This document shows positions 18,236 through 19,524 of a stretch of DNA of 64,000 nucleotides, in pieces. The position numbers were made by a program, and so were the translations under genes. Source of the DNA: Eubacteriales bacterium. GTDB taxonomy: Bacteria > Bacillota > Clostridia > Oscillospirales > CAG-272. The notes under the pieces were generated by a model. The model was not told the DNA's origin, searched no databases, and saw only the letters and a list, made by a program, of their open reading frames with translations. The stretch covers positions 5,135 to 69,134 of the forward strand of contig JAZKZW010000082.1 in assembly GCA_045612865.1 (NCBI GenBank), read 5' to 3'. Position 1 is the first letter of the stretch. Each line of letters starts with the position of its first letter.

Positions 18236-19524
18236 TGTTATTAACTCTAAGTTTTTTATCTTAGACTCTGGAGGTTTCCCTCATTTGCATCGATTGGTCA
18301 ATTCCAATCCAGTTTAGCATATCTTTTCACTTGCATAGTGTCGAAGTCTCTTGGAGATATTTTATTCTGCATTGCAGTTTCAATCTCTATGCGTTGCGCG
18401 TGTTGCAACTGTTACATTACAACTTCCGCTCTGATTAGCATTTTACAGCTTTCCAGTTTTTTACTTCGATTTAATCACGGCAATTCCTCATTATTTAAAA
18501 TTTAATACAGTTTCATACTTACGATCTAAATATATCGTAGCATTTAAGTAAAGATCTTTTAATGCCAAATTTGCTTGTTTATTACGCAATTCAAAGCTAT
18601 AAATCGTGCCGTGCTCATAGATATAAGAACACTCTTTTTTAAAATCTACATATTGAGCAAACCAAGTTTTTACATATTCACAGCTTGTTTTAGAACCAAC
18701 ATATTTAAAATAGCCATCTTCAACATGCCCATCTCCATCAATCATGCCTCTTAGATAAGCTGTATCTAAAAGGGGATTATTAAAAATATATGGAATTTCT
18801 TGCCCACTTTTACCCGCATATAAATTATATTGACGTAAGTCATCAATCATTGCTTTACAGCTGTACTCAAGATATGGACAAATATTATTTTTTTCATAAG
18901 CGCCTCCGATATCCTCTTTAATAGAGGCTGGAGAATCTTGCATAAAGATGGCTAATTTTTCTAAATGTTTTTTGTCTTTGTTGCCAAGCTTCACTCTTAG
19001 CACGCCACGATTATTATTGATATAGGCGTCTGCTAAAAAGAAGCCTAACCAATAAGCCTATTCTTCTGTTGTAATATCTTTAAAAGCAAGTCTGTTATAT
19101 GCTTTTAATGATTTATTTATATAATTTGTACCCATAACAGCCATTCTTCTTTTTATCGTGTCTGTTTTGGTTCCAAATTTATTGGCTACTACAGTAATTG
19201 GCTCATCATGTTCTATAAAATATAGAACTGGCTCTAATTCTTTTTCTGAAATATAATAGTAAGCATCTTGATAATAATATTGATAATCTACATAGTCTTG
19301 CAAATGTTTGCTAATTGAATGACGATCAACTCCAAATTTCTCTGCAACTTTTGTTAAACTATCTTCTGGATGCTCATTCGCGTATTCGCAAGCAGCGAAT
19401 AATTTCTTTGACATGTGTTTCATAAAACTTCTCCTTTATTTCTATATTTTCTTTATCATTTATATATAAAAATTAAGGTGGAAGAATTACTTAAATTTAA
19501 CCAAAAATTTTAAATATTTCTTAT
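18236..19524 (-). mobile_element. group-I-like intron in gyrA carrying a LAGLIDADG homing endonuclease
   Basis: exon 1 ends ...CACGGT (after U), insertion ends in G, exon 2 resumes GAT; joins to [10 protein letters not shown]. Confidence 0.6.
18491..19423 (-). CDS. LAGLIDADG homing endonuclease with N-terminal HTH domain; single in-frame TAG at 19055-19057
   Basis: two table ORFs share a frame separated only by TAG; motifs AYWLGFFLADAY and LRGMIDGDGH. Confidence 0.6.

What the first reader, a model, noticed from the sequence alone, without database searches (positions are those of the whole stretch)
18491..19423. The intron homing endonuclease is one ORF interrupted by a single TAG
Table ORFs 19058..19423 (HTH domain) and 18491..19003 (second LAGLIDADG motif LRGMIDGDGH) are in the same frame and separated only by TAG at 19055-19057. 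The first LAGLIDADG motif (AYWLGFFLADAY) lies between them. With TAG read as a sense codon this is an ordinary 311 aa double-motif LAGLIDADG enzyme. Under the standard code it would be two non-functional halves.
Basis: seen in the sequence. Interest (0 to 1): 0.6.

Follow-up and report, generated by a model that had tools for sequence, protein, structure and literature searches.

The report
Amber-recoded intron homing endonuclease gene
A homing-endonuclease gene inside a self-splicing intron of a phage topoisomerase gene is one intact gene whose single TAG "stop" is most likely read as glutamine by the phage's own suppressor tRNA; this kind of recoding is already known, so the case is clear but not new.

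Summary
ORFs 19058..19423 and 18491..19003 are one minus-strand frame of 310 sense codons. The fused protein matches about 27 uninterrupted ~310-aa relatives end to end. Both LAGLIDADG motifs and their catalytic Asp residues are intact. A confident model of an 86%-identical orthologue matches single-chain LAGLIDADG nucleases.

The TAG is not a lesion. Three other recoded relatives have TAG at the same column, and a standard-code relative has CAA (Gln) there. dN/dS is 0.10 on both sides of it. The window encodes a tRNA(CUA) most like its own tRNA-Gln. No real gene ends in TAG. Six other homing-endonuclease-like genes carry 25 more in-frame TAGs.

The gene lies in loop L1 of a 1298-nt group I (IA-like) intron. 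The intron splits a gyrA-like gene at HPHG|D, and this site is conserved in six loci.

This is genetic code 15 in an uncultured large phage. Borges et al. already described and interpreted a recoded intron endonuclease in TGA-recoded phages, so this is a new member of a known kind. Extras: TAG is almost confined to selfish nuclease genes here, and a conserved hairpin hides the gene's ribosome-binding site.

The parts
18491..19423 (-). Single LAGLIDADG homing-endonuclease gene of 310 sense codons (ATG 19423..19421, stop TAA 18493..18491). It has an N-terminal helical, HTH-like DNA-binding region (aa 1-~100), a linker, and a double-motif LAGLIDADG core (aa ~120-310).
   Evidence: dN/dS against the L002 orthologue is 0.10 in both halves.
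19058..19060 (-). In-frame TAG, codon 122, at the N-terminus of the first LAGLIDADG helix. Read as Gln.
   Evidence: Position. Same column is TAG in L001, L002 and L038, and CAA in the standard-code relative L034.
19022..19057 (-). First LAGLIDADG motif, AYWLGFFLADAY. Asp132 is the catalytic acid.
   Evidence: Invariant columns Y124 W125 G127 F128 L130 A131 D132. Helix 120-132 in the model.
18725..18760 (-). Second LAGLIDADG motif, AYLRGMIDGDGH. Asp231 is the catalytic acid.
   Evidence: Invariant columns R225 G226 I228 D229 G230 D231 G232 H233. Helix 217-231 in the model.
18233..19530 (-). Group I (IA-like) intron of 1298 nt, with the endonuclease ORF in loop L1. It follows exon-1 U19531 and ends in G18233.
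   Evidence: Boundaries restore ...[14 protein letters not shown].... Same site and same U|...G| boundaries in six loci.
18476..18481 (-). Internal guide sequence GCCGUG. It pairs with the exon-1 end CACGGU to form P1, with a U.G wobble at the splice site.
   Evidence: Present 9-24 nt after the endonuclease stop in all six loci. The 7th P1 pair covaries: exon CCU with guide A, against exon CCA with guide U.
18233..18475 (-). Ribozyme core with P3, P4-P6, P7 (GCAUA/UAUGC), P7.1, P8 and P9 hairpins.
   Evidence: RNAalifold on six loci predicts 33 pairs, 22 with compensatory changes. P7 was identified by inspection and its columns are invariant.
19422..19490 (-). Hairpin pairing an anti-SD (CUUCCACCUU, 19484..19475) with the endonuclease Shine-Dalgarno (AAGGAG, 19436..19431).
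   Evidence: It is the minimum-energy structure in all six introns, z-scores -1.8 to -4.9, with different flanking pairs in different loci.
19531..19764 (-). Exon 1 of the gyrA/parC-like topoisomerase subunit, ending ...GTYHPHG.
   Evidence: Relatives carry Pfam DNA_topoisoIV on the equivalent short ORF.
16118..18232 (-). Exon 2 of the gyrA-like gene, starting [15 protein letters not shown]... There is no in-frame TAG.
22444..22519 (-). Suppressor tRNA with anticodon CUA and an encoded CCA end. It is Gln-like: G73, G2:C71, G3:C70, A1xA72. A sigma70-like promoter lies at 22575..22547 and a terminator-like hairpin follows.
   Evidence: ARAGORN and Rfam. Closest of the window's tRNAs is tRNA-Gln(UUG), 61 of 76 positions. 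Promoter and terminator scan.
11070..12227 (-). GIY-YIG nuclease gene with an N-terminal coiled coil. 4 in-frame TAG.
24949..25761 (-). Gene with CxCxCG repeats plus a Vsr-like 'homing endonuclease' domain. 9 in-frame TAG and no TAA or TGA.
35176..35934 (-). Paralogue of the gene above. 1 in-frame TAG.
54449..55258 (-). GIY-YIG nuclease gene with 4 in-frame TAG, one of them in the motif YIG[TAG]S. The window's two other GIY-YIG genes read YIGQA and YIGQT there.
57764..58594 (-). GIY-YIG plus NUMOD3 nuclease gene. 2 in-frame TAG.
59671..60600 (+). Third paralogue of the CxCxCG/Vsr-like nuclease, on the opposite strand. 5 in-frame TAG.

Best explanation
The window comes from an uncultured, tRNA-rich large phage that uses genetic code 15, in which TAG means glutamine.

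The ORF 19423..18491 is one functional gene for a single-chain, double-motif LAGLIDADG homing endonuclease with an N-terminal helical DNA-binding region. Codon 122 (TAG, 19060..19058) is decoded as Gln by the phage's own Gln-type suppressor tRNA(CUA) at 22519..22444.

The gene sits in loop L1 of a group I (IA-like) intron. That intron interrupts the gyrA-like topoisomerase gene between the codons for HPHG and D. The intron splices out of the mRNA, and the endonuclease cuts intron-less alleles so that the intron is copied into them.

What is shown: one gene under purifying selection, the TAG conserved and aligned to Gln, a suppressor tRNA present, TAG not used as a terminator, and intron boundaries and core helices supported by covariation.

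What is inferred: translation needs two locks opened, namely the hairpin that hides the Shine-Dalgarno and the supply of suppressor tRNA. Nuclease production would then be delayed or limited relative to the early topoisomerase mRNA. This is the logic Borges et al. proposed for a TGA-recoded intron endonuclease, and it resembles the control of T4 I-TevI.
For: 1. One gene. The fused frame aligns over 100% of its length with about 27 proteins of ~310 aa. Pfam LAGLIDADG_3 scores 34 bits against a cut-off of 22.5. The model of the 86%-identical orthologue has pLDDT 93.4 and matches I-AniI, I-Tsp061I, I-DmoI and I-SceI. Catalytic D132 and D231 are invariant.

2. Not a lesion. Against L002, dN/dS is 0.098 upstream and 0.103 downstream of the TAG, at dS 0.6-0.9. 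The same column is TAG in L001, L002 and L038.

3. TAG means Gln. The column is CAA in standard-code L034. L001 has TAG where the window, L034 and L036 have Gln (FMQDS). L038 has TAG where the window has Gln (HLQDY, LRQYN). L002 has TAG where the family consensus is Gln. In a window GIY-YIG gene the motif reads YIG-TAG-S, where the window's two other GIY-YIG genes read YIGQA and YIGQT.

4. Decoder. A tRNA(CUA) is present and is most similar to the window's tRNA-Gln(UUG). It has G73, G2:C71 and G3:C70.

5. Genome-wide code.
- Of 78 standard-code minus-strand ORFs of at least 80 aa, only 3 end in TAG. Two of those are front fragments of nuclease genes and one is an out-of-frame ORF inside the ligase gene.
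- Standard-code relatives L034 and L036 end 10 of 53 genes in TAG, and recoded L038 ends 0 of 24.
- There are 26 in-frame TAG in 7 nuclease genes. One of these has 9 TAG and no TAA or TGA.

6. Intron. The site and the U|...G| boundaries are identical in six loci. P1 (CACGGU/GCCGUG) has one covarying pair. 22 of 33 core pairs show compensatory changes.

7. Locks. An SD-sequestering hairpin is predicted in all six introns. The precedent and its interpretation are in Borges et al., bioRxiv 10.1101/2021.08.26.457843, and in the T4 review PMC2988022.
Against: - There is no protein-level evidence: nothing shows directly that Gln, or anything else, is inserted at this TAG.
- Rfam's group I model does not hit the intron, even at E<=10. 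The group I assignment rests on boundaries, P1 and covariation in only six sequences.
- Timing is unknown. The suppressor tRNA has a good sigma70-like promoter directly upstream. It could therefore be made early, in which case the TAG would gate nothing.
- Three other nuclease-like genes in the window have no TAG: HNH_3 at 30124..30732, HNH at 49842..50480 and PDDEXK_5 at 44404..44847. At least one core gene does have one (AAA_24, codon 13). TAG is therefore enriched in selfish genes, not exclusive to them.
- Only 64 kb of the genome is visible, and no clearly late or structural genes are in view.
Confidence: 0.85

Rival explanations
1. The endonuclease gene is a decaying pseudogene. A nonsense mutation killed it, and the intron persists as a splicing-competent relic.
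For: Degenerate endonuclease genes in phage introns are common; T4 I-TevIII is one example (PMC2988022). One close relative, L001, does carry a frameshift in the N-terminal part of its copy.
Against: - dN/dS is 0.10 both upstream and downstream of the TAG, at dS ~0.7.
- The only interruption is TAG, with no TAA, TGA or frameshift in 310 codons.
- The same TAG is kept in three other loci, one of them only 55% identical.
- The catalytic residues are invariant.
- The genome carries a tRNA(CUA) and never uses TAG to end a real gene.
Confidence: 0.04
2. TAG acts as a stop here, fully or mostly. The functional product would be the 121-aa N-terminal DNA-binding protein, for example a repressor or splicing helper, and the nuclease part would rarely or never be made. 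A mixed version has a short product early and a full-length product once the suppressor accumulates.
For: The TAG falls at the boundary between the helical N-terminal region plus linker and the nuclease core. It is kept at that column in four recoded loci. Suppression by a suppressor tRNA competing with host RF1 is normally incomplete (general knowledge). I-TevI has a documented second role as a DNA-binding repressor (PMC2988022).
Against: - The downstream 189 codons are under the same strong purifying selection as the upstream part, so they are translated often enough to matter.
- In L038, TAG makes up 9 of the 17 Gln positions of this gene, including several inside the N-terminal region. TAG there cannot serve as a domain-boundary stop.
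- Sharing of the column among the window, L001 and L002 is explained by common descent. Sharing with L038 is about a 50% chance event.
Confidence: 0.08
3. TAG is read as an amino acid other than Gln, for example pyrrolysine (ARAGORN labels the tRNA 'Pyl') or Leu, Tyr or Lys.
For: ARAGORN's automatic label is 'tRNA-Pyl'. At some TAG columns, homologues have Lys or Glu rather than Gln.
Against: - The tRNA has an ordinary cloverleaf and is closest to the phage's tRNA-Gln, with G73 and G2:C71/G3:C70.
- No pylS or pylBCD-like genes were seen among the annotated genes.
- Gln is the commonest residue opposite TAG in standard-code relatives and in the window's own sense codons.
- TAG to Gln has been confirmed by proteomics in other phages (PMC9523058, listed).
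Confidence: 0.03

Closest known systems
Recoded group I intron endonuclease of TGA-recoded 'Agate' phages (Borges et al., bioRxiv 10.1101/2021.08.26.457843)
   Same: A homing-endonuclease gene inside a self-splicing group I intron in an early phage gene carries in-frame reassigned stop codons. The authors already proposed that this holds back endonuclease production until the suppressor is active.
   Different: That case uses TGA read as Trp (code 4); this one uses TAG read as Gln (code 15). The host gene here is a gyrA-like topoisomerase subunit and the nuclease is LAGLIDADG with an N-terminal helical domain. Here there is a single TAG plus an SD-sequestering hairpin. Standard-code sister phages carry the same intron and endonuclease with no TAG.
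Code-15 (TAG read as Gln) phages: crAss-like, Lak and other gut phage clades (Borges et al.; Peters et al., PMC9523058, listed)
   Same: A phage-encoded tRNA(CUA) is present, TAG is absent as a terminator, and in-frame TAG aligns to Gln. Recoding is uneven across genes, and replication genes are largely free of it.
   Different: A different lineage: the gene content resembles large phages of Firmicutes (YorF and YorH in relatives, NAD-ligase, gyrA/gyrB, sigma factor). In this 64-kb stretch TAG is almost confined to homing-endonuclease-like genes, not to structural or lysis genes, which are not in view.
Phage T4 td intron and I-TevI, and the other T4 intron endonucleases (Edgell, Gibb and Belfort 2010, PMC2988022)
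   Same: A group IA-type intron in a nucleotide or DNA-metabolism gene. The endonuclease ORF lies in a peripheral loop. A stable hairpin sequesters its Shine-Dalgarno so that translation from the early pre-mRNA is poor.
   Different: I-TevI is a GIY-YIG enzyme whose ORF is in P6, and it is released by a mapped late promoter. Here the enzyme is LAGLIDADG, the ORF is in L1, no promoter has been mapped, and there is an extra amber-codon lock.
Single-chain LAGLIDADG enzymes I-AniI, I-Tsp061I, I-DmoI and I-SceI
   Same: Two LAGLIDADG helices, each ending in a catalytic Asp, and the same fold by Foldseek (E 3e-6 to 1e-3).
   Different: Sequence identity is only 11-16%. This family adds an N-terminal region of about 100 aa with two three-helix units. 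The nearest annotated phage relatives (26-33% identity) are intron-encoded endonucleases of Staphylococcus Twort-like phages, Bacillus phage Goe21 and Yersinia phage phiR1-37.

Membership tests
LAGLIDADG homing endonuclease (single-chain, two-motif) | Two LAGLIDADG motifs in one chain, each with a conserved acidic residue at motif position 8 | tested here: met
   WLGFFLAD132A and LRGMIDGD231G. D132 and D231 are invariant in 28 sequences.
LAGLIDADG homing endonuclease (single-chain, two-motif) | Curated profile match above threshold | tested here: met
   Pfam PF14528 LAGLIDADG_3 at 34 bits against a cut-off of 22.5, residues 121-159, which includes the TAG column. Only motif 1 is covered. PHROG 4645 'endonuclease' at 1.5e-34 over residues 21-306.
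LAGLIDADG homing endonuclease (single-chain, two-motif) | Duplicated alpha-beta-beta-alpha-beta-beta-alpha fold with the two motif helices packed at the centre | tested here: met
   Tested on the 86%-identical orthologue P0001, not on the window protein itself. pLDDT 93.4, helices 120-132 and 217-231 each followed by beta-strands. Top PDB matches are all LAGLIDADG enzymes or inteins.
LAGLIDADG homing endonuclease (single-chain, two-motif) | Site-specific cleavage of the intron-less allele | not testable with these tools
   Needs the purified Gln122 protein and the target ...CATCCTCACGGT|GATTCCTCAATC...
Group I intron (IA-like) | 5' splice site after a U that forms a U.G pair with an internal guide sequence (P1), and a 3'-terminal G | tested here: met
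   Exon CACGGU pairs with guide GCCGUG (18481..18476). The intron ends in G18233. The same holds in six loci, and the 7th P1 pair covaries.
Group I intron (IA-like) | Conserved core P3-P9 with the P3/P7 pseudoknot, plus P7.1 between P7 and P3' in subgroup IA | tested here: inconclusive
   P3, P4-P6, a P7.1-like helix and P8 are supported: 22 of 33 pairs are compensatory in six sequences. P7 (GCAUA/UAUGC) was found by inspection and is invariant, so it shows no covariation. P9 hairpins covary by eye. The sample is small.
Group I intron (IA-like) | Match to the curated covariance model (Rfam RF00028) | tested here: not met
   No hit at the gathering score or at E<=10 on 18100..19650. The 933-nt ORF in L1 may contribute, but I did not test how well RF00028 detects IA-type phage introns.
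Group I intron (IA-like) | Removal restores a continuous, conserved host gene | tested here: met
   The junction gives ...[20 protein letters not shown]..., which I recognise from general knowledge as the conserved GyrA/ParC active-site-region motif. The same junction is found in six loci.
Group I intron (IA-like) | GTP-dependent self-splicing | not testable with these tools
   Needs an in vitro transcription and splicing assay.
Genetic code 15 (TAG read as Gln) phage | In-frame TAG in conserved protein-coding genes, aligned to Gln in standard-code homologues | tested here: met
   26 in-frame TAG in 7 nuclease genes, plus AAA_24 codon 13. Gln stands opposite TAG in several columns.
Genetic code 15 (TAG read as Gln) phage | TAG not used as a terminator | tested here: met
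   Only 3 of 78 standard-code minus-strand ORFs of at least 80 aa end in TAG, and none of those is a real gene end. Standard-code relatives end 10 of 53 genes in TAG.
Genetic code 15 (TAG read as Gln) phage | Phage-encoded suppressor tRNA(CUA), Gln-type | tested here: met
   Located at 22444..22519. Rfam tRNA score 46.4 bits. Closest to the window's tRNA-Gln(UUG), with G73, G2:C71 and G3:C70. Aminoacylation identity is inferred, not tested.
Genetic code 15 (TAG read as Gln) phage | Peptide evidence for Gln at TAG | not testable with these tools
   Needs proteomics of infected cells or of the source sample.

The most novel reading that the evidence does not exclude
The amber codon is a programmed two-product switch, not just a synonymous Gln codon. 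While suppressor tRNA is scarce, the ORF would yield a 121-aa DNA-binding-only protein that occupies the homing site or the intron DNA, acting as a repressor or a protector. Once the suppressor accumulates, the same ORF would yield the full nuclease.

More broadly, in this lineage the reassigned codon would re-enter the genome first through selfish nuclease genes. About 26 of 29 in-frame TAG lie in 7 of 10 such genes, and the other 2-3 lie within the first 18 codons of core genes. That would make this phage a natural early stage of codon capture. It would also tie the nucleases to hosts that carry the suppressor.
Probability: 0.12. Interest if true: 0.6.

Novelty: new member of a known kind. 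Interest (0 to 1): 0.35.

Why it matters
For annotation, standard-code gene callers would split this and at least six other nuclease genes in the window into fragments, and would also misread the interrupted topoisomerase gene. The window should be called with table 15 and with the intron joined.

Biologically, it adds a TAG/Gln example, with good comparative support, to the one published remark that intron endonucleases in recoded phages carry reassigned stops.

It also offers a useful natural series. The same intron and endonuclease at the same site occur in sister phages with 0 TAG (L034, L036, standard code), with 1-4 TAG (window, L002, L001), and with 9 of the 17 Gln positions as TAG (L038). 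With complete genomes, that series could be used to ask which genes take up a reassigned codon first. It could also test whether recoding and SD sequestration together time nuclease expression.

Tried and rejected
- **Rfam scans.** A scan of the whole window at gathering score and of 18100..19650 at E<=10 gave no group I hit. The intron had to be argued from boundaries and covariation.
- **Megablast of 16000..22600 against GenBank phages.** No match, so there is no close cultured relative.
- **Exact look-up of the window's GyrB protein.** Not on record, so the source contig was not identified.
- **IMG/VR scan with the family profile.** It found only one close locus (L003); the rest were distant LAGLIDADG genes and were not used.
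- **'Q' at the TAG column in database homologues.** I first read this as independent evidence, then rejected it. Several of those proteins had themselves been called with code 15 ('translates_to_query: no'). I therefore went back to the DNA of each locus and relied on the standard-code loci L034 and L036.
- **'TAG occurs only in homing-endonuclease genes.'** Rejected as stated. Three nuclease-like genes lack TAG. AAA_24 has a TAG at codon 13, supported by an SD plus ATG and by the N-terminus of the L038 homologue. An ORF just downstream of the suppressor tRNA begins ATG ACA TAG. The apparent TAG in the nucleotidyltransferase-like ORF 55607..56464 lies upstream of its real SD and ATG. The one in the RecJ-like gene is undecided.
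- **MAFFT and RNAalifold on the 5' intron segment.** This failed to align the SD hairpin because the loop length varies. It was replaced by single-sequence folds.
- **tRNA scan of the relatives' 7-20-kb loci.** No suppressor tRNA was found. This is uninformative, because most of those genomes is not in view.
- **Sequence-only PDB search.** It gave only a weak hit to I-Tsp061I (E 0.011). The fold search was needed.
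Full report
**Observation**

The minus strand from 19423 to 18491 is one reading frame: 121 codons, TAG, 189 codons, TAA. The ORF listing shows it as two ORFs, 19058..19423 and 18491..19003. ORF ends in the ORF listing include the stop, and the sequence puts TAG at 19060..19058. Positions 19057..19055 are GCT, Ala123.

The first motif, AYWLGFFLADAY, occupies 19057..19022. That is between the TAG and the GTG at 19003 where the second listed ORF begins. The second motif, AYLRGMIDGDGH, is at 18760..18725. The product has 310 residues, not 311.

**It is one gene**

- Pfam LAGLIDADG_3 matches residues 121-159 at 34 bits against a cut-off of 22.5, so the match starts one residue before the TAG column.
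- A search of the large protein collection returned 27 relatives with E of 2.5e-69 or better. Most are ~310 aa and cover 100% of the query.
- In their alignment both motifs are invariant, including D132 and D231.
- An AlphaFold model built on the 86%-identical orthologue P0001 is confident (pLDDT 93.4). It shows two three-helix units (aa 6-40 and 60-96), a linker, then helix 120-132 and helix 217-231, each followed by beta-strands.
- Foldseek against the PDB returns only LAGLIDADG proteins at the top: the I-AniI, I-Tsp061I, I-DmoI and I-SceI enzymes, the related WhiA and bI3 maturase, and intein endonuclease domains.
- A protein started at GTG 19003 (codon 141) would lack the first LAGLIDADG helix and the first strand. 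No Shine-Dalgarno precedes that GTG. AAGGAG sits 7 nt before the ATG at 19423.

**The TAG is a sense codon**

Several database homologues showed Gln at the TAG column, but that was partly circular. For P0001, P0002 and P0012 the encoding DNA does not translate to the protein under table 11, because those proteins had been called with TAG as Gln. I therefore read the DNA of each locus.

| Locus | Code | Codon at the column |
|---|---|---|
| Window | recoded | TAG |
| L002 (86% identical protein) | recoded | TAG |
| L001 | recoded | TAG |
| L038 (55% identical) | recoded | TAG |
| L034 | standard | CAA (Gln) |
| L036 | standard | GAT (Asp) |
| L003 | carries one TAG elsewhere | AAA (Lys) |

Other TAGs in the relatives fall opposite Gln:
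- L001 has TAG where the window, L034 and L036 read FMQ.
- L038 has TAG where the window reads HLQDY and LRQYN.
- L002 has TAG where the family consensus reads KYQTV.

Against L002, dN/dS is 0.098 for codons 1-120 and 0.103 for codons 122-310, at dS 0.6-0.9. Both halves have been kept by selection for a long time with the TAG in place.

**The rest of the window agrees**

ARAGORN finds 25 tRNAs, one of them with anticodon CUA at 22444..22519, which Rfam confirms. ARAGORN's 'Pyl' label is only a default. The tRNA has a normal cloverleaf, and of all the window's tRNAs it is most like tRNA-Gln(UUG), with 61 of 76 positions identical. It shares G73, G2:C71 and G3:C70 with it. From general knowledge, these are GlnRS identity elements in E. 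coli.

With TAG allowed as sense, seven nuclease genes become whole:

| Gene | Type | In-frame TAG |
|---|---|---|
| 18491..19423 | this LAGLIDADG gene | 1 |
| 11070..12227 | GIY-YIG | 4 |
| 54449..55258 | GIY-YIG | 4 |
| 57764..58594 | GIY-YIG | 2 |
| 24949..25761 | CxCxCG-repeat/Vsr-like 'homing endonuclease' | 9 |
| 35176..35934 | paralogue | 1 |
| 59671..60600 (+ strand) | paralogue | 5 |

One GIY-YIG gene reads YIG-TAG-S where the window's two other GIY-YIG genes read YIGQA and YIGQT.

Further counts come:
- Of 78 standard-code minus-strand ORFs of at least 80 aa, only three end in TAG. Two are front fragments of these nuclease genes and one is an out-of-frame ORF inside the ligase gene.
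- In the non-nuclease genes TAG occurs 16, 232 and 180 times in frames 1, 2 and 3.
- Most of the 16 frame-1 cases lie upstream of the real start or in doubtful small ORFs in the tRNA array.

Relatives give the contrast. L034 and L036 end 10 of 53 genes in TAG and have none in frame. L038 ends 0 of 24 in TAG and has in-frame TAG in most genes, though none in gyrA, gyrB or RNase H.

**TAG is enriched in selfish genes, not exclusive to them**

- Ten nuclease-like genes (2632 codons) hold 26 TAG.
- 71 other ORFs (13881 codons) hold at most 2-3 credible ones. Fisher p is about 2e-11 even when all 16 doubtful cases are counted.
- Three nuclease-like genes have no TAG: HNH_3 at 30124..30732, HNH at 49842..50480 and PDDEXK_5 at 44404..44847.
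- The AAA_24 gene has TAG at codon 13. An SD plus ATG precede it, and its N-terminus aligns with that of the L038 homologue.
- The ORF just downstream of the suppressor tRNA begins ATG ACA TAG behind a good SD.

**Context: a group I intron in a gyrA-like gene**

Exon 1 (19764..19531) ends ...GTYHPHG. Exon 2 (18232..16118) starts [15 protein letters not shown]. Joined, they give the conserved GyrA/ParC motif HPHGD. The 1298-nt insert follows a U and ends in G.

The same endonuclease family sits at exactly this site in L001, L003, L034/L035, L036/L037 and L038. These are contigs of large uncultured phages whose neighbouring genes include gyrB, NAD-ligase, RNase H, YorF and AAA_24.

A hexamer GCCGUG lies 9-24 nt after the endonuclease stop in every locus. 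It pairs with the exon end CACGGU, with a U.G wobble at the splice site. The seventh pair covaries: exon CCU with guide A in four loci, and exon CCA with guide U in two. The ORF therefore sits in loop L1.

The ~245 nt that follow fold into P3, P4-P6, a P7.1-like helix and P8. Of 33 predicted pairs, 22 show compensatory changes across six sequences. P7 (GCAUA/UAUGC) and the P9 hairpins were seen by inspection. A helix between P7 and P3' is the subgroup IA arrangement, as in the T4 introns (general knowledge). Rfam's group I model does not detect the intron, so membership rests on these features and is marked accordingly.

**How it probably works**

Shown:
- It is an intact endonuclease gene in a structured intron.
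- It has one amber codon.
- A Gln-type amber suppressor is encoded 3 kb away.

Inferred: the amber codon makes synthesis of the nuclease depend on the suppressor. A second lock may exist. In all six introns the minimum-energy fold of the ~60-80 nt before the ATG pairs the Shine-Dalgarno with an upstream pyrimidine tract. Z-scores run from -1.8 to -4.9, and the flanking pairs differ between loci. [quoted passage not shown]

Borges et al. noted a group I intron endonuclease in an early gene of TGA-recoded Agate phages that is preferentially recoded. They proposed that the in-frame stops delay endonuclease production until late (bioRxiv 10.1101/2021.08.26.457843).

Timing here is untested. A good sigma70-like promoter sits directly upstream of the suppressor tRNA, which leaves open that the tRNA is made early.

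**Comparison and novelty**

This is code 15 in a phage, with a recoded intron endonuclease. Both the phenomenon and its interpretation are published. New here are the lineage, the TAG/Gln version, the LAGLIDADG family with its N-terminal helical domain, and the gyrA HPHG|D insertion site. The ORF's position in L1 and the double lock are also new.

There is also a tidy series of sister loci. The same gene carries 0, 1-4, or 9 TAG among its Gln positions.

There is no close cultured relative. The nearest annotated endonucleases, at 26-33% identity, are intron-encoded genes of Staphylococcus Twort-like phages, Bacillus phage Goe21 and Yersinia phage phiR1-37.

**Verdict**

It is a new member of a known kind and of moderate interest. 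Its main value is for correct annotation and as comparative material on how a reassigned codon spreads.

Noticed in passing
window 42702..43321 (-): A full-length ROOL RNA (Rfam RF03087, 161.6 bits, E 3e-34) lies inside the phage's tRNA array, next to tRNA-Thr, tRNA-Gly and tRNA-Cys.
   Followed up: no
window 52677..52751 (-) and 47186..47257 (-): ARAGORN calls a tRNA-like gene with a four-base 'agtt' anticodon. Its 8-nt anticodon loop could mean a frameshift suppressor or an odd tRNA-Asn. A further tRNA is found only by Rfam (43.8 bits). Several tRNAs are unusually long (Gln 80 nt, Lys 86 nt).
   Followed up: no
window 30767..33235 (-) and 39756..41288 (-): An 822-aa protein has Major Vault Protein shoulder and repeat domains (MVP_shoulder, 9.7e-26). 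A 510-aa protein is SPFH/flotillin-like. Both are unusual in a phage.
   Followed up: no
window 33546..34085 (-) and 37846..39057 (-): An isochorismatase-family (nicotinamidase-like) gene and a nicotinate phosphoribosyltransferase gene lie close together. They look like an NAD salvage pair, possibly a counter to NAD-depleting defence systems.
   Followed up: no
window 24949..25761 (-), 35176..35934 (-), 59671..60600 (+): Three paralogues of a nuclease with repeated CxCxCG zinc-like modules and a C-terminal Vsr-like domain (IEYDGxQH). They have no Pfam family but match PHROGs 374, 559 and 9084 ('HNH/homing endonuclease'). They carry 9, 1 and 5 in-frame TAG, and one lies on the opposite strand to nearly all other genes.
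   Followed up: partly
window 7407..8411 (-) and 21908..22399 (-): Two non-nuclease genes have a TAG very near the start. AAA_24 has one at codon 13, aligned to Lys in the L038 homologue. An unknown ORF begins ATG ACA TAG directly after the suppressor tRNA and its terminator-like hairpin. The RecJ-like gene 626..2419 may have one at codon 18, which is undecided.
   Followed up: partly
window 22547..22575 (-): A sigma70-like promoter (TTGATT-17-TATAAT, 10 of 12 matches) lies immediately upstream of the suppressor tRNA. A similar one (21852..21880) follows a strong terminator upstream of gyrB. This suggests host-polymerase, possibly early, transcription of both.
   Followed up: no
L036 3679..7004 and L038 6083..9534: In two relatives the gyrB-like gene is itself split into pieces around a GIY-YIG endonuclease gene, probably a second intron. 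The window's gyrB (19917..21818) is uninterrupted.
   Followed up: no
window 44404..44847 (-): A PD-(D/E)XK_5 nuclease gene (Pfam PF11645, E 7e-22) sits between tRNA-Leu and tRNA-Gln in the tRNA array. It has no in-frame TAG.
   Followed up: no
window 19440..19475 (-) and the equivalent in L001, L003, L034, L036, L038: The loop of the SD-sequestering hairpin contains a -10-like element (TATAAT, TATATA or TATTAT) in all six introns. A transcript starting just downstream would lack the anti-SD strand, as with the T4 I-TevI late promoter. In such AT-rich sequence this may be chance.
   Followed up: no
window 11070..12227 (-) and L034 17571..18512: This GIY-YIG nuclease has an N-terminal hydrophobic segment and a long coiled coil, an unusual architecture. 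All four of its TAG lie in the coiled-coil part. The standard-code relative L034 has a GIY-YIG gene with a similar N-terminal region and no TAG.
   Followed up: no
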